From IMG/VR virus record IMGVR_UViG_2645728091_000002, positions 1-7,424 of that record: a stretch of DNA of 7,424 nt; one strand, written 5' to 3'. The number at the start of each line of letters is the position of its first letter. Positions within the stretch are counted from its first letter, which is position 1. The notes beneath the pieces were generated by a model. The model made no database searches. It was not told the DNA's origin and saw only the letters and a program-made list of their open reading frames with translations. The position numbers and the translations under genes are program-made. The DNA is from a virus. Taxonomy: Duplodnaviria; Heunggongvirae; Uroviricota; Caudoviricetes. Positions 1,855 to 7,424 of this stretch are shown piece after piece.

Positions 1855-1925
1855 ATAAAATTTAAGTTTTCTTCAAAAACACTCTTGACCACAAATTAAA
1901 GAAATCTTAAATTTAAGTCATCAGC
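1855..1925 (+). promoter_or_regulatory. OL operators and pL promoter (leftward early promoter, + strand in this window)
   Basis: -35 TTGACC (1885-1890), 17-bp spacer, -10 TAAATT (1908-1913). Operator-like repeat aattaaagaaatcttaaat (1894-1912) matches the OR copy at 17/19 positions. Further ATTTAAG half-sites at 1860-1866 and 1911-1917. Confidence 0.7.
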
Positions 1926-2114: not shown

Positions 2115-2414
2115 ATGACAGTAGTCATTACATATCTGGCTGACGATAACGCCAGAAATCGCCGCAGAGCACGCAGACAGGCTCAACGTGAACAGGCAAT
2201 GCAAGAGCAGCGACTGGCGCGAAAGATTGCGCTAAAGCTCTCTGGTTGCGTCAGAGCAGATAAAGCAGCATCACTCGGAAGCCTTCGCTGCCAGAAGGCA
2301 GAAGAAGTCGAGCGTAAACAGAACCGTATTTACTACAGCAAGCCACGCAGTGAAATGGGTGTGACTTGTGTTGGTCGCCAGAAAATGAAATTAGGCAGCA
2401 AACCACTTATTTGA
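2115..2414 (+). CDS. N: N-family transcription antiterminator (99 aa) with an atypical arginine-rich motif
   Basis: C-terminal two-thirds (…LARKIALKLSGCVRADKAASLGSLRC…ERKQNRIYYSKPRSEMGVTCVGRQKMKLGSKPLI) parallels the lambda N C-terminus (ERKNQRTWYSKPGERGITCSGRQKIKGKSIPLI) and the phage 21 N body as I recall them. The N-terminal ARM is DNARNRRRARRQAQREQ. GGAGG lies 5 nt upstream of the ATG. It is the first gene downstream of pL/nutL. Confidence 0.85.
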   Translation: MTVVITYLADDNARNRRRARRQAQREQAMQEQRLARKIALKLSGCVRADKAASLGSLRCQKAEEVERKQNRIYYSKPRSEMGVTCVGRQKMKLGSKPLI

Positions 2415-2422
2415 GGTGATAT

Positions 2423-2872
2423 ATGGAAGAACAGGCAAATAAGATTCTCATAGAACTATTGCAAAAAGCCAGTAATGGAATAGACGCGGCTGTCTCATTT
2501 AGCCAGGCACAGATTCCTGATGTTGTTCATCAGTTGCTGCTATGGAATATGGTTGATAGCCTGATTAAAACATTAATAGCCATTTTAACAATCCCGCTGG
2601 TTTTCTGGTTTATGAAGAAACAGTACCAAAAAGTTGAAATTGGTAAGTTCGATGATGAAGGATGGTCATGGGATAAGGGGAAGACTAAATACAAACCGAC
2701 TATGATTTGGGAAAGTAACGGTGAGATTAGTTTTCTAATCTTACCATTAGCTGCAGTTTTTGTTCTGTGGGTAAGTTTTATTATTGCTGTAGTAACCAAT
2801 ATGACATGGTTAGAAATTTTGCTGGCTCCAAAGCTTTACCTTATCGAATATGCAGCATCATTGGTTAAGTAA
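2423..2872 (+). CDS. Small membrane protein (149 aa, two predicted TM helices), function unknown; occupies the position where lambdoid phages carry sieB-type superinfection-exclusion genes
   Basis: GAGGTGA Shine-Dalgarno overlaps the N stop codon, with the ATG 8 nt after N, so it is translationally coupled. Hydrophobic segments LIKTLIAILTIPLVFWFM and ISFLILPLAAVFVLWVSFIIAVV. Visibly more A+T-rich than the flanking N and Red genes. I do not recognise the sequence as a named protein. Confidence 0.75.
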   Translation: MEEQANKILIELLQKASNGIDAAVSFSQAQIPDVVHQLLLWNMVDSLIKTLIAILTIPLVFWFMKKQYQKVEIGKFDDEGWSWDKGKTKYKPTMIWESNGEISFLILPLAAVFVLWVSFIIAVVTNMTWLEILLAPKLYLIEYAASLVK

Positions 2873-2876
2873 TTTC

Positions 2877-2902
2877 AGGCCGCATAGTCGGCCTTTATTT
2901 TT
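2877..2902 (+). terminator. Rho-independent terminator after the membrane-protein gene (tL1-like position)
   Basis: AGGCCG(2877-2882)-CATAGT-CGGCCT(2889-2894) stem followed by TTATTTTT. Confidence 0.7.
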
Positions 2903-2931
2903 GGCACTAACAACAGAATAAACACTGCACT

Positions 2932-2959
2932 GTGTATTCATTCCAACGAGTGAATACAC
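2932..2959 (+). other. Stable stem-loop (11-bp stem with one G·U, 6-nt loop) in a non-coding segment; not followed by a U-tract
   Basis: GTGTATTCATT (2932-2942) pairs with AGTGAATACAC (2949-2959); loop CCAACG. No convincing ORF or promoter around it. Confidence 0.5.
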
Positions 2960-3067: not shown

Positions 3068-3436
3068 ATGTCAAACATCAAAAAATACATCATTGATTAC
3101 GACTGGAAAGCATCAATAGAAATTGAAATCGACCATGACGTAATGACAGAGGAAAAACTTCACCAGATTAATAATTTCTGGTCAGACTCTGAATACCGAC
3201 TCAATAAACACGGCTCTGTATTAAATGCTGTATTAATCATGCTGGCGCAACATGCTCTGCTTATAGCAATTTCAAGCGACTTAAATGCATATGGTGTTGT
3301 GTGTGAGTTCGACTGGAATGATGGAAATGGTCAGGAAGGATGGCCTCCAATGGATGGTAGCGAAGGAATAAGAATTACCGATATCGATACATCAGGAATA
3401 TTTGATTCAGATGATATGACTATCAAGGCCGCCTGA
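3068..3436 (+). CDS. ea10: Acidic 122-aa early-left-operon protein; probable counterpart of lambda Ea10
   Basis: GAGGA lies 9 nt upstream of the ATG. The gene sits immediately upstream of cIII and has the 122-aa length I associate with lambda Ea10. The assignment rests on position and size; I do not reliably recall the Ea10 sequence. The C-terminal third is strongly acidic (DWNDGNGQEGWPPMDGSEG…DSDDM). Confidence 0.6.
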   Translation: MSNIKKYIIDYDWKASIEIEIDHDVMTEEKLHQINNFWSDSEYRLNKHGSVLNAVLIMLAQHALLIAISSDLNAYGVVCEFDWNDGNGQEGWPPMDGSEGIRITDIDTSGIFDSDDMTIKAA

Positions 3437-3460
3437 GTGCGGTTTTACCGCATACCAATA

Positions 3461-3482
3461 ACGCTTCACTCGAGGCGTTTTT
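3461..3482 (+). terminator. Putative terminator or RNA structure upstream of the cIII ribosome-binding site
   Basis: ACGCTTC(3461-3467)-ACTC-GAGGCGT(3472-3478), a 7-bp stem with one G·U, followed by TTTTTCGTT. Could also be part of the cIII leader structures known to modulate cIII translation in lambda. Confidence 0.45.
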
Positions 3483-3508
3483 CGTTATGTATAAATAAGG
3501 AGCACACC

Positions 3509-3673
3509 ATGCAATATGCCATTGCAGGGTGGCCTGTTGCTGGCTGCCCTTCCGAATCTTTACTTGAACGAATCACCCGTAAATTACGTGACGGATGGAA
3601 ACGCCTTATCGACATACTTAATCAGCCAGGAGTCCCAAAGAATGGATCAAACACTTATGGCTATCCAGACTAA
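3509..3673 (+). CDS. cIII: CIII (54 aa), inhibitor of FtsH-mediated CII degradation
   Basis: [54 protein letters not shown] matches lambda CIII as I recall it. AAGGAG lies 6 nt upstream of the ATG at 3509. The 78-aa ORF in the track is an in-frame upstream over-extension. Confidence 0.92.
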   Translation: MQYAIAGWPVAGCPSESLLERITRKLRDGWKRLIDILNQPGVPKNGSNTYGYPD

Positions 3674-3785
3674 ATTCACTATCGCCACTTTTATTGGCGA
3701 TGAAAAGATGTTTCGTGAAGCCGTCGACGCTTATAAAAAATGGATATTAATGCTGAAACTGAGATCAAGCAAAAGCATTCACTAA
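3642..3785 (+). CDS. kil: Kil (47 aa), host cell-division inhibitor
   Basis: [47 protein letters not shown] matches lambda Kil as I recall it. AGGAG lies 9 nt upstream. It overlaps the 3' end of cIII in another frame, as in lambda. The 89-aa track ORF is an over-extension. Confidence 0.85.
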
Positions 3786-4156
3786 CCCCCTTTCCTGTTT
3801 TCCTAATCAGCCTGGCATTTCGCGGGCGATATTTTCACAGCTATTTCAGGAGTTCAGCCATGAACGCTTATTACATTCAGGATCGTCTTGAGGCTCAGAG
3901 CTGGGCGCGTCACTACCAGCAGATCGCCCGTGAAGAGAAAGAGGCAGAACTGGCAGACGACATGGAAAAAGGCCTGCCCCAGCACCTGTTTGAATCGCTA
4001 TGCATCGATCATTTGCAACGCCACGGGGCCAGCAAAAAAGCCATTACCCGTGCGTTTGATGACGATGTTGAGTTTCAGGAGCGCATGGCAGAACACATCC
4101 GGTACATGGTTGAAACCATTGCTCACCACCAGGTTGATATTGATTCAGAGGTATAA
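3740..4156 (+). CDS. gam: Gam (138 aa), RecBCD inhibitor
   Basis: [80 protein letters not shown]… is near-identical to lambda Gam as I recall it. The internal Met (MNAYYIQ…) corresponds to the short Gam form. Confidence 0.93.
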
Positions 4157-6789: not shown

Positions 6790-7320
6790 TCATTCAGTAT
6801 CATCACGCGCGGTCTGTGCATATGTTACTACCGCACCTAATGTATTAATTTTCTTTTCAACATAGATAATATTATCGTACTCATAATTGCCATACGGATA
6901 GCAAATGCGAATATTCTCATGTAGATCGGGGTCATCCACCTCAGCTCCAGAACAACTTTTTGAACTACCGGAAGTATACCGATACGGTGCAACATAAGAC
7001 GATGTCTCTCCAGGCAAAAAATAAGTTAGTGTTGTAAGGGGTATAATCAGAAAAAATCCAGCAAATATGCACATCCCTGCATAAACCTTAAGGTATGCTG
7101 ACAGACTCTTCCAGCCGCTTTGTTTTACTATCCCCTTCTTAACCCAAAACAGAGATAACAGAAAAGCTATTCCCATGCTAAACAGAATGTAATAGTGGGA
7201 TATACTCTGATTAAGAAACGTGACCCTGTAAATATCTGCCCGCCACCAGAAGAAAAGGAAAATAAAGATCAGGCCTGAAACTGTCATGCAAATCAAATAA
7301 GGATACGAATCTTTTTTCAT
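6790..7320 (-). CDS. A+T-rich accessory (moron-like) membrane protein, 176 aa, three predicted TM helices plus a Cys-containing C-terminal soluble domain; function unknown
   Basis: Long uninterrupted ORF in strongly A+T-rich DNA, where chance ORFs are disfavoured. Lys-rich N-terminus MKKDSYPY followed by hydrophobic segments LICMTVSGLIFIFLFFWW, YYILFSMGIAFLLSLFWV and VYAGMCIFAGFFLIIPLTTLTYFL. Convergent with the pL operon. Its start codon is 9 bp from the IS10-type end. Confidence 0.7.
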   Translation of the reverse strand: MKKDSYPYLICMTVSGLIFIFLFFWWRADIYRVTFLNQSISHYYILFSMGIAFLLSLFWVKKGIVKQSGWKSLSAYLKVYAGMCIFAGFFLIIPLTTLTYFLPGETSSYVAPYRYTSGSSKSCSGAEVDDPDLHENIRICYPYGNYEYDNIIYVEKKINTLGAVVTYAQTARDDTE

Positions 7321-7328
7321 GTTTAGCG

Positions 7329-7424
7329 CTGATGAATCCCCTAATGATTTTTATCAAAATCATTAAGTTAAGGTAGATACACATCTTGTCATATGATCAA
7401 ATGGTTTCGCCAAAAATCAATAAT
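7329..7424 (+). mobile_element. Outside end of an IS10-type element (Tn10 family); element continues beyond the window, transposase gene expected on the + strand just past 7424
   Basis: CTGATGAATCCCCTAATGATTTTTATCAAAATCATTAAGTTAAGGTAGATACACATCTTGTCATATGATCAAATGGTTTCGCCAAAAATCAATAAT matches the IS10 outside-end sequence as I recall it, including the terminal CTGATGAATCCCC, the near-palindrome around AATGATTTT…AAAATCATT and the TTAAGTTAAGG IHF-site region. Flanking 9 bp TGTTTAGCG (7320-7328) resembles the IS10 target consensus NGCTNAGCN. Confidence 0.85.

What the first reader, a model, noticed from the sequence alone, without database searches (positions are those of the whole stretch)
2423..2872. 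Unrecognised two-TM membrane protein translationally coupled to N at the sieB position
This 149-aa ORF starts 8 nt after the N stop, with its Shine-Dalgarno overlapping that stop. It is more A+T-rich than N and has two strong hydrophobic helices. In lambda and P22 the region just downstream of N houses superinfection-exclusion and anti-restriction functions (sieB, ral). Here ral is absent and this different membrane protein takes that place. Coupling to N means it would be made at the earliest moment after induction or infection.
Basis: partly seen in the sequence, partly recalled or inferred. Interest (0 to 1): 0.6.

Follow-up and report, generated by a model that had tools for sequence, protein, structure and literature searches.

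The report
Uncharacterised mobile phage membrane-protein gene
The ORF is a real, well-conserved gene for a small two-helix membrane protein that many unrelated phages carry as an optional extra; it is not SieB, nobody has studied it, and its function is still unknown.

Summary
A 149-codon ORF (2423-2872) starts 8 nt after the N stop, and its GAGGTGA ribosome site overlaps that stop. It is 37% G+C against 50% for N and has two hydrophobic helices. The window has no ral or sieB. The gene is real: it is intact in 82 of 83 close relatives, with dN/dS 0.20. It belongs to PHROG 3054 ("Sf6 gene 34"), about 2,400 clusters at 50% identity, all annotated "hypothetical". No Pfam, PADLOC, PDB or fold match was found. 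The soluble tails are the constrained parts (dN/dS 0.05-0.06; invariant Ala-Pro-Lys near the C-terminus). It is not SieB: profile comparison gives nothing, sieB runs antisense to pL, and both genes co-occur in at least 9 relatives. It is a coding-sequence-sized cassette found after N, after Rz, in the nin region, antisense inside structural operons, and in early regions of virulent phages. Here it sits before the first pL terminator, so it should be made with N. In E. coli LF82, published RNA-seq shows the 81%-identical homolog silent in LB lysogens but 8-fold up in macrophages without induction. Membrane-level superinfection exclusion is my best guess (about 0.35), untested.

The parts
1885..1913 (+). 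pL-like promoter (TTGACC, 17 nt spacer, TAAATT) driving the leftward early operon
   Evidence: Promoter scan. The same hexamers sit at the same relative position in LF82 Gally. The position matches the annotated pL/oL region of phage 21.
1959..2000 (+). nutL: boxA-like GGCTCTTTAACA (about 1959-1970) and a boxB hairpin TCCCGC-CGAAAT-GCGGGA (1983-2000)
   Evidence: Read. The boxA string is identical to that in phage 21's annotated boxA-L/nutL region, while the boxB differs from phage 21's. The whole segment is identical in LF82 Gally. This is an inference from sequence, not a test.
2115..2414 (+). N antiterminator gene (99 aa)
   Evidence: PHROG 271, N-like, E = 1.6e-36. 97% identical to LF82 Gally N. 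The C-terminal 66 residues are 97% identical to phage 21 N, but the N-terminal arginine-rich motif differs.
2413..2419 (+). Shine-Dalgarno GAGGTGA of the ORF, overlapping the N stop codon (2412-2414)
   Evidence: Sequence. AGGTGA-type junctions recur in most of the 80 close relatives.
2423..2872 (+). The 149-aa ORF: a member of PHROG 3054 ('Sf6 gene 34' family), a two-helix membrane protein
2423..2557 (+). N-terminal tail, residues 1-45: acidic, helical, highly conserved (motif G-I-D..V.F.Q.Q-I-P-D-V..Q-L-L.W)
   Evidence: Residues L9, F26, P32, V34, Q37, L38, L39 and W41 are at least 90% conserved across 139 diverse members. dN/dS is 0.06. The family-wide net charge is -3.6.
2558..2614 (+). 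Hydrophobic helix 1, residues 46-64
   Evidence: Hydropathy. In the AF2 model it continues the N-tail as a single helix, residues 2-68. The sequence varies across the family.
2615..2731 (+). Inter-helix loop, residues 65-103: variable in length and sequence, rich in Lys/Arg at its start
   Evidence: Loop length runs from about 10 to about 70 residues across the family. The six residues after helix 1 are 31% K/R and 3% D/E. This is the lowest-confidence part of the model.
2732..2800 (+). Hydrophobic helix 2, residues 104-126
   Evidence: Hydropathy and model helix 106-125.
2801..2869 (+). C-terminal tail, residues 127-149: motif W-L-(K/Q)-I-W-.-A-P-K-L-Y-L-I-E-Y-A-A-.-L-.-K
   Evidence: A135, P136 and K137 are invariant in 139 members. 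I132, L140, E142, Y143, A145 and L147 are at least 90% conserved. The protein ends 15 residues after the Ala of APK in 114 of 139 members. dN/dS is 0.05.
2877..2904 (+). Intrinsic terminator straight after the ORF (AGGCCGCATAGTCGGCCT then TTATTTTT): the first terminator of the pL transcript
   Evidence: Conserved after the homolog in LF82 and in phage Oslo.
3020..3051 (+). Second intrinsic terminator, upstream of ea10
   Evidence: It lies in the spacer that is 96% identical to phage 21's post-ral spacer and to LF82. Phages 21 and 434 have terminators annotated at this position.

Best explanation
Shown. The ORF is a functional gene of a large, uncharacterised phage family (PHROG 3054, 'Sf6 gene 34'). 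It encodes a helical-hairpin membrane protein. The hydrophobic helices and the loop between them drift freely, while the N-terminal tail and the extreme C-terminal tail are nearly frozen. Both tails must lie on the same side of the membrane. The gene moves between phages as a unit the size of its coding sequence and turns up in the usual optional-gene slots. In this prophage it lies between N and the first terminator of the pL transcript.

Inferred. Because of that position, it should be made together with N, without needing antitermination, in the first minutes after infection or induction.

Proposed, untested. The two tails form one module that binds a conserved component of the host cell envelope. 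Through that contact the protein closes the inner membrane to DNA from a second phage. That would be superinfection exclusion during lytic growth, comparable in outcome to T4 Imm or P22 SieA, and exclusion in the lysogen where the gene has its own promoter. The confidence given (0.35) is for this proposed function. The gene, family, architecture and transcription-unit statements stand at about 0.9.
For: Real gene: full-length PHROG 3054 match at E = 7e-59; 2,442 cluster representatives at E <= 1e-3; intact in 82 of 83 close relatives with dN/dS 0.20. Architecture: two hydrophobic helices and an AF2 model with mean pLDDT 90.3. The tails carry the constraint: A-P-K is invariant, 14 further positions are at least 90% conserved and all lie in the tails, and dN/dS is 0.06 and 0.05 for the tails against 0.38 for the core. 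Accessory and mobile: low G+C; homology to PhiR46_1 begins at the ATG and ends at the stop codon; only 178 of 50,697 phage records and 267 of 5,426 E. coli genomes carry it. Slots used: after N behind three N types, after ral or sieB, and between Rz and Nu1; directly after Rz in other lineages; after RusA or NinG. It is also a lone opposite-strand gene between terminase and portal and among tail genes. Virulent phages carry it in early or replication regions. Exclusion is the one function that suits both prophage lone genes and early genes of virulent phages. The neighbouring genes in this slot (sieB, ral, a Nun-related protein) all act in phage-phage or phage-host conflict. Immediate-early unit: there is no terminator between N and the ORF and one directly after it. 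In LF82 at 1 h in macrophages, N, LF82_105 and LF82_104 read log2 6.6-7.6 while the next genes read 4.5-5.4.
Against: No experiment exists on any member of the family: every source calls it hypothetical and no paper mentions the PHROG. It shows no similarity to any known exclusion or defence protein. There was no credible match in PADLOC, no informative Pfam match and only generic helical hairpins in the fold search. Known exclusion proteins tend to be variable and specific to a phage group. Near-invariant tails across lambdoid, P22-like, BPP-1-like, N4-like and phi92-like phages suit a universal host target better than a block aimed at particular incoming phages. In several lineages the gene abuts or overlaps Rz, so it would be made late, which is a poor time for exclusion. 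In this window no promoter-like site lies between pL and the ORF, so it probably cannot protect the lysogen. In LF82 the homolog is silent in LB-grown lysogens, reading 18.6 against a background of 15.6. Membrane topology is unresolved.
Confidence: 0.35

Rival explanations
1. Helper of the phage's own lytic cycle. The protein acts early on a conserved host envelope component, for example by neutralising a membrane-acting abortive-infection effector, holding the membrane potential, or damping an envelope stress response. The benefit would go to the phage that encodes it rather than coming from blocking others.
For: It is immediate-early here. In virulent phages it lies in early, middle or replication regions. 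Near-invariant tails across very different phage types suggest one conserved host target. ral and gam in the same operon are counter-defence genes.
Against: A takeover gene is not expected as a lone gene on the opposite strand inside late structural operons of prophages. The gene is sporadic even among close relatives, so no phage depends on it. No target is known.
Confidence: 0.2
2. Host-benefit gene expressed from the prophage (lysogenic conversion). The protein alters the envelope of the lysogen under particular conditions and so helps the bacterium rather than the phage cycle.
For: In LF82 the homolog rises 8-fold in macrophages (log2FC 3.04, q = 4e-14) and in the B6 samples, which I read as DMEM. 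The paper measured Gally induction as about 10-fold lower in macrophages than in vitro, so the rise does not come from induction. In B6 its raw counts are 539 and 466 against 26 and 32 for N, so it is uncoupled from pL there. The lone opposite-strand arrangement in other prophages points the same way.
Against: Virulent phages, which never form lysogens, keep the gene. In this window there is no promoter-like site between pL and the ORF. The promoter-like site seen in LF82 lies inside LF82_105, a gene this window lacks. The authors did not score the gene as a moron in LB.
Confidence: 0.13
3. Modulator of lysis. The protein works with the holin, endolysin and spanin system, for example as an antiholin-like timer or a spanin partner.
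For: The gene lies directly after the Rz spanin gene in at least six lineages. The gap is 8 nt in L117, and the genes overlap by 13 nt in L119 and by 4 nt in L160. It is a small membrane protein.
Against: Most enterobacterial copies lie in the pL operon, far from the lysis genes. In virulent phages the gene is not beside lysis genes. The C-terminus is hydrophobic, unlike the charged tail typical of holins, and no holin family in Pfam matches. The Rz-to-terminase junction is itself a common slot for optional genes. In lambda, bor lies there (my own knowledge).
Confidence: 0.12
4. A diverged SieB, the refutation case named by the first reader.
For: It lies in the same N-to-cIII neighbourhood and is a membrane protein of similar size.
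Against: No Pfam SieB match at E <= 1. The profile comparison with lambda SieB gives probability 0.08%. The PHROG family is different. sieB runs in the opposite direction to N. Both genes are present side by side in phage Oslo and in at least 9 of the 80 related loci.
Confidence: 0.02

Closest known systems
PHROG 3054 / 'gene 34 protein' of Shigella phage Sf6 (uncharacterised family)
   Same: Full-length profile match at E = 7e-59. All 139 diverse relatives match the same PHROG. The family shares the two-helix layout and both tail motifs. A phage record labels a homolog 'gene 34 protein [Shigella phage Sf6]'.
   Different: Nothing differs: the ORF is an ordinary member. The family has no assigned function, no Pfam entry and no solved structure.
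SieB of lambda and P22 (abortive-infection type exclusion; Pfam PF14163)
   Same: It lies in the same neighbourhood between N and cIII and is a membrane-associated accessory protein of a lambdoid phage.
   Different: No sequence or profile similarity. sieB is on the opposite strand to N, whereas this ORF runs with N. The two genes co-occur.
Small inner-membrane exclusion proteins that block DNA entry: T4 Imm, P22 SieA, HK97 gp15
   Same: By analogy only. These are small inner-membrane proteins encoded by optional genes and made early (T4) or from the prophage (P22, HK97). What they do is taken from my own knowledge and from PMC10883804, listed.
   Different: I did not compare sequences directly. 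Indirectly, the only PHROG hits are 3054 and two unannotated or 'membrane protein' families. This family is also far more widespread, and far more conserved in its tails, than those lineage-restricted proteins.
Ral (restriction alleviation), which occupies the same slot in phage 21
   Same: It lies between the same flanks. The spacer after the ORF is 96% identical to the spacer after ral in phage 21.
   Different: The proteins are unrelated (Ral is 66 aa and soluble). In at least 13 relatives ral sits just upstream of this gene.
Morons such as lambda bor (optional genes added between essential phage genes)
   Same: Lower G+C than its neighbours, its own terminator, patchy distribution and several alternative insertion sites, including the Rz-to-terminase junction.
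   Different: In this window it has no promoter of its own that the scan could find, and it depends on pL. The shared unit is only the coding sequence, not a promoter-gene-terminator block.

Membership tests
PHROG 3054 ('Sf6 gene 34' family) | Significant full-length match to the family profile | tested here: met
   E = 7.3e-59, protein residues 1-149 against profile positions 1-137 of 137.
PHROG 3054 ('Sf6 gene 34' family) | Conserved N-tail and C-tail motifs flanking two hydrophobic helices | tested here: met
   The ORF carries all the invariant and at-least-90% conserved residues (A135, P136, K137, L9, F26, P32, V34, Q37-L39, W41, I132, L140, E142, Y143, A145, L147). The helices are at residues 46-64 and 104-126.
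SieB (Pfam PF14163) | Sequence or profile similarity to SieB | tested here: not met
   No Pfam hit at E <= 1. hhalign of the family profile against lambda SieB gives probability 0.08% over 3 aligned columns.
SieB (Pfam PF14163) | Transcribed against the pL operon, so that it can be expressed in the lysogen | tested here: not met
   Lambda sieB (34482-35036, + strand) and Oslo sieB are on the strand opposite to N. This ORF is on the same strand as N.
SieB (Pfam PF14163) | One exclusion gene per slot (expected if this were the SieB equivalent) | tested here: not met
   sieB and the homolog are both present in Oslo and in at least 9 of the 80 related loci.
SieB (Pfam PF14163) | Aborts lytic growth of superinfecting phages | not testable with these tools
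   This needs plating assays.
Moron (autonomous optional gene unit) | Base composition differs from the neighbours; present or absent among close relatives | tested here: met
   37.1% G+C against 49.7% for N. The slot holds different genes in phages 21, 434 and lambda, and the gene occurs at other sites.
Moron (autonomous optional gene unit) | Own terminator | tested here: met
   Hairpin 2877-2894 plus a T run, conserved in LF82 and Oslo.
Moron (autonomous optional gene unit) | Own promoter, with expression in the lysogen | tested here: inconclusive
   The scan finds no promoter-like site between pL and the ORF. The LF82 homolog is silent in LB lysogens, but it rises 8-fold in macrophages and in the B6 samples (read as DMEM) without induction, and it is uncoupled from N in B6. 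The only candidate promoter there lies in a gene that this window lacks.
Holin or antiholin | Encoded in the lysis cassette next to the endolysin; charged C-terminal tail; match to a holin family | tested here: not met
   Here the gene is in the pL operon. The C-tail is hydrophobic with 2 K/R and 2 D/E. No holin family appears in Pfam for any of the 139 members. Some relatives do follow Rz.
Known anti-phage defence proteins (PADLOC) | Match to any defence-system model | tested here: not met
   No hit for the ORF. Across 139 members there are only single weak hits (best E = 7e-4) to unrelated two-helix models.
Membrane-level superinfection exclusion proteins (Imm, SieA, gp15 type) | Blocks entry of superinfecting phage DNA | not testable with these tools
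   This needs plating, adsorption and DNA-entry assays.
Membrane-level superinfection exclusion proteins (Imm, SieA, gp15 type) | Sequence similarity to a characterised member | not tested
   I made no direct comparison with Imm, SieA or gp15. Indirectly, the only PHROG matches are unannotated or labelled just 'membrane protein'.

The most novel reading that the evidence does not exclude
The family is a new class of phage membrane effector. Its frozen N- and C-terminal tails would dock onto a single envelope component that is conserved across Gamma- and Betaproteobacteria. Phages as different as lambdoid, P22-like, BPP-1-like, N4-like and phi92-like ones would then share one way of sealing or reprogramming the inner membrane. 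That would be a general exclusion or takeover mechanism unrelated to SieA, SieB, Imm or Rex.
Probability: 0.25. Interest if true: 0.7.

Novelty: new member of a known kind. Interest (0 to 1): 0.42.

Why it matters
This is one of the larger phage protein families with no known function. It has about 2,400 clusters at 50% identity and is present in about 5% of complete E. coli genomes. It occurs in pathogens' prophages (E. albertii, Shigella, Salmonella, LF82) and in virulent phages of the kinds considered for therapy. The gene is small, acts as a single unit and has sharply defined conserved motifs, so a plasmid clone and a phage panel would test it quickly. If it does exclude other phages, it would affect which phages can infect lysogens or co-infect cells. 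If instead it targets a host envelope machine, that target would be of wider interest. If neither holds, it remains an ordinary optional gene of unknown role.

Tried and rejected
Pfam, NCBIfam and PADLOC scans of the ORF gave nothing usable. The single NCBIfam hit, to PagP, scored 12.7 bits against a cut-off of 155 and is noise.

Pfam and PADLOC scans of 139 diverse members gave only scattered chance hits to membrane families.

PDB sequence searches with two profiles gave nothing at E < 0.1. The weak matches to the two-helix anchor of cytochrome bo3 subunit II (E 0.2-0.4) look driven by hydrophobic composition.

Literature searches on the PHROG number, on Sf6 gene 34 and on exclusion or moron terms found no study of the family. 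The ε34 and phage L genome papers add nothing about this family; the phage L paper states that most early-left-operon genes have no known function.

The profile search with divergent members returned only 'hypothetical protein' names.

I looked for a constant neighbouring gene across contexts and found none. N4 itself has no homolog.

Charge statistics did not settle the topology. Promoter scans of the lone-gene context found no sigma-70-like site, which shows the limits of that scan, since such a gene must have a promoter.

I rejected the 89-aa ORF on the opposite strand (2530-2799), because conservation and dN/dS follow the plus-strand frame.

Full report
**The window.** It is the immunity and early-left region of a lambdoid prophage, read in reverse relative to the lambda map. 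O, cII and cro lie on the minus strand. On the plus strand come cI (1146-1796), a terminator, a pL-like promoter (1885-1913), N (2115-2414) and the ORF in question (2423-2872). These are followed by two terminators, ea10/DUF2528, cIII with its RNA thermosensor, gam, bet and exo. The backbone is closest to phage 21 / imm21. The ORF is 97-99% identical to proteins of Escherichia albertii.

**Checking the observation.** The N stop is at 2412-2414 and the ATG at 2423, with 8 nt between them. GAGGTGA at 2413-2419 overlaps the stop. G+C is 37.1% for the ORF and 49.7% for N. The hydrophobic helices span residues 46-64 and 104-126. Neither ral nor sieB is in the window.

**Is it a real gene?** Yes, beyond doubt.
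- It matches PHROG 3054 over its full length at E = 7e-59.
- An exhaustive profile search finds 2,442 cluster representatives at E <= 1e-3, of which 1,113 are at E <= 1e-10. Those listed are mostly 115-185 residues long.
- Among 83 close relatives, 82 have an intact 149-codon frame, and median dN/dS is 0.20.

**What the protein looks like.** An AlphaFold model built on 139 diverse relatives is confident (mean pLDDT 90.3). It has one long helix (residues 2-68) that runs from the N-terminal tail into the first hydrophobic segment. A poorly defined loop follows, then a second hydrophobic helix (106-125) and two short C-terminal helices.
- The conservation pattern is the most informative feature. 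Ala135-Pro136-Lys137 are invariant across the 139 sequences.
- Fourteen more positions are at least 90% conserved, and all of them lie in the N-tail (L9, F26, P32, V34, Q37-L39, W41) or the C-tail (I132, L140, E142, Y143, A145, L147).
- The protein ends exactly 15 residues after the Ala of A-P-K in 114 of 139 members.
- The hydrophobic helices and the loop vary in sequence, and the loop varies in length from about 10 to about 70 residues.
- dN/dS agrees: 0.06 for the N-tail, 0.05 for the C-tail and 0.38 for the middle.

With two membrane helices, the two tails must lie on the same side. I infer that they form one functional module.

**Topology is open.** The N-tail is acidic (net -3.6, few K/R). 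The six residues after helix 1 are 31% K/R. The loop has the highest K/R density of the three regions. All of this favours a cytoplasmic loop and periplasmic tails. However, the C-tail is slightly positive, so the charge rule is not decisive.

**Comparison with known families.**
- No Pfam, NCBIfam or PADLOC model fits the ORF or any of the 139 relatives.
- No PDB sequence is related.
- Every source name is 'hypothetical protein'. One phage record labels a homolog 'gene 34 protein [Shigella phage Sf6]'.
- Full-text searches found no study of the family.

**It is not SieB.**
- The SieB Pfam model does not match, and a profile comparison with lambda SieB gives probability 0.08%.
- sieB is on the strand opposite to N in lambda and in phage Oslo.
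- The two genes sit side by side in Oslo and in at least 9 of the 80 related viral contigs. ral sits just upstream of the homolog in at least 13.

**Where the gene occurs.** The slot after N is variable: ral in phage 21, a Nun-C-terminal-peptide protein in 434, and sieB plus ral in lambda. The spacer after the ORF is 96% identical to phage 21's spacer after ral, so relative to phage 21 the ORF replaces ral between fixed flanks. The start 8 nt after the N stop also serves unrelated genes in 434, HK633 and LF82, so it belongs to the slot rather than to this gene.

The gene is not tied to N. Its other locations are:
- Between Rz and terminase Nu1, in the closest phage copy (88% identity, PhiR46_1). 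Homology there starts at the ATG and ends at the stop codon. About 8 of the 80 close relatives share that site.
- Directly after Rz in more distant prophages of Pantoea, Yersinia, Buttiauxella and Proteus and in a metagenomic phage. The genes lie 8 nt apart in L117 and overlap in L119 and L160.
- After RusA or NinG.
- As a lone opposite-strand gene between terminase and portal or among tail genes.
- In virulent phages: N4-like Vibrio, Klebsiella and Salmonella phages, roughly 147 kb phi92-like myophages, and a replication module.

It is sporadic everywhere: 178 of 50,697 phage records, 267 of 5,426 complete E. coli genomes, and not in N4 itself. Host range covers Gamma- and Betaproteobacteria. 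No neighbouring gene is constant, so it appears to act alone or with host factors.

**Expression.** In this window no terminator-like site lies between N and the ORF, and a good intrinsic terminator follows it at 2877-2904. That terminator is conserved in LF82 and Oslo. I therefore infer that pL, nutL, N, the ORF and this terminator form the immediate-early transcript. The scan finds no promoter-like site between pL and the ORF.

Published RNA-seq for E. coli LF82 bears on this (PMC9928086, Tables S1 and S4). Prophage Gally carries an N that is 97% identical, with the same nutL. Next comes an 83-codon gene (LF82_105), then LF82_104, then the same two terminators. LF82_104 is 81% identical to this ORF and has identical tails.
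- In LB stationary phase LF82_104 reads 18.6 against a prophage background of 15.6. The authors list Gally as having no lysogen-expressed optional gene.
- At 1 h in macrophages, N, LF82_105 and LF82_104 read log2 6.6-7.6 while the next genes read 4.5-5.4. That is what a pL transcript stopping at the first terminator would give.
- At 6 h in macrophages LF82_104 is up 8-fold over LB (log2FC 3.04, q = 4e-14). Yet the paper measured Gally induction as about 10-fold lower in macrophages than in vitro.
- In the B6 samples LF82_104 has 539 and 466 raw counts against 26 and 32 for N. I take B6 to be the DMEM cultures, because the S1 caption lists LB, DMEM and macrophage conditions.

So in Gally the gene can also be transcribed independently of pL. 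A promoter-like site lies inside LF82_105, but this window lacks that gene. These readings of the tables are mine, from two replicates per condition.

**Function.** Nothing here shows it. I weigh four ideas.
- Membrane-level superinfection exclusion is the only one that suits both lone prophage genes and early genes of virulent phages, and it fits the company the gene keeps. Three things count against it: the near-invariant tails across unrelated phages, late-operon copies next to Rz, and silence in LB lysogens. I put it at about 0.35.
- A helper of the phage's own lytic cycle acting on a host envelope target: about 0.2.
- A host-benefit gene expressed under particular conditions: about 0.13.
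- A lysis modulator: about 0.12.
- A diverged SieB is effectively excluded.

**Verdict.** I file it as a new member of a known kind (an optional phage membrane-protein gene), with moderate interest.

Noticed in passing
window 7374-7424 (-): Rfam RNA-OUT, the antisense RNA of IS10/Tn10, matches at 61.4 bits (E = 1e-10) and is cut off by the end of the window. An IS10-type element probably abuts or interrupts the prophage here.
   Followed up: no
window 6790-7320 (-): A 176-aa multi-helix membrane ORF lies on the strand opposite to the pL operon, in a low-G+C stretch (34-39%). Its C-terminal half matches PHROG 1416 (unknown function, E = 1.6e-50). Phage 434 has a 'putative membrane protein' at the same place. 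It looks like a second optional membrane-protein gene.
   Followed up: partly
window 2115-2213 and 1983-2000: N is a hybrid. Its C-terminal 66 residues are 97% identical to phage 21 N, but the arginine-rich N-terminus (NARNRRRARRQAQREQ) and the boxB hairpin (TCCCGC-CGAAAT-GCGGGA) differ from phage 21. Both are identical in LF82 prophage Gally. This suggests a separate N/nut specificity class.
   Followed up: partly
window 2412-2425; L007 3135-3147; L003 3182-3193; L141 2823-2834: Unrelated genes start 8 nt after the N stop behind the same kind of ribosome site. They include the Nun-C-terminal-peptide protein of 434, HK633 gp43 and LF82_105. The N 3' end seems to be a fixed joint where different cargo genes are swapped in. 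Phage Oslo keeps a relic of that joint in front of its homolog, although sieB now separates it from N.
   Followed up: partly
window 2933-2959: A 9-bp inverted repeat (GTGTATTCA ... TGAATACAC, 9-nt loop) lies between the two terminators. The spacer holding it is 96% identical to phage 21 and LF82. No Rfam family matches it.
   Followed up: no
window 2807-2780 (-): A promoter-like site (ATGTCA, 16 nt spacer, AATAAT) sits on the opposite strand inside the ORF, and the same site is found in PhiR46_1. It may be chance, since the scans found no more sites than shuffled sequence gives.
   Followed up: no
window 3496-3554 (+): The lambda cIII RNA thermosensor (Rfam RF01804) is present and complete at 88.5 bits.
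   Followed up: no
E. coli LF82 chromosome 1178432-1178938, prophage Perceval (PMC9928086 Table 1 and S1): LF82_152, a 'transmembrane protein' listed two locus tags below the CI repressor (LF82_154) and next to kil (LF82_151), is transcribed 81-fold above prophage background in LB lysogens. It is a strongly expressed membrane-protein gene in the equivalent region of another lambdoid prophage. I did not check its relation to SieB or to this family.
   Followed up: no
L003 (phage HK633) 3501-3866: The homolog in HK633 matches as one 121-residue frame, but the record annotates two other CDSs across it (gp43 at 3191-3580 and gp42 at 3690-3866). The family member is probably mis-annotated or disrupted there.
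   Followed up: no
family loop region (window 2615-2731): In 39 of 139 family members the loop contains a D-x-x-G-(D/E/N/Q) element, often as Y-K-P-T-L-x-H-D-x-D-G-D, which resembles calcium-binding loops. Another 14 members have a W-T-R-Y type motif instead. The loop may add lineage-specific functions to a common core.
   Followed up: partly
plasmid records H89-H100 (46-48 kb, non-mobilisable): Most plasmid hits are 46-48 kb non-mobilisable replicons of E. coli and E. albertii, the same size as phage PhiR46_1. They are probably phage-plasmids carrying the gene in the Rz-to-Nu1 slot.
   Followed up: no
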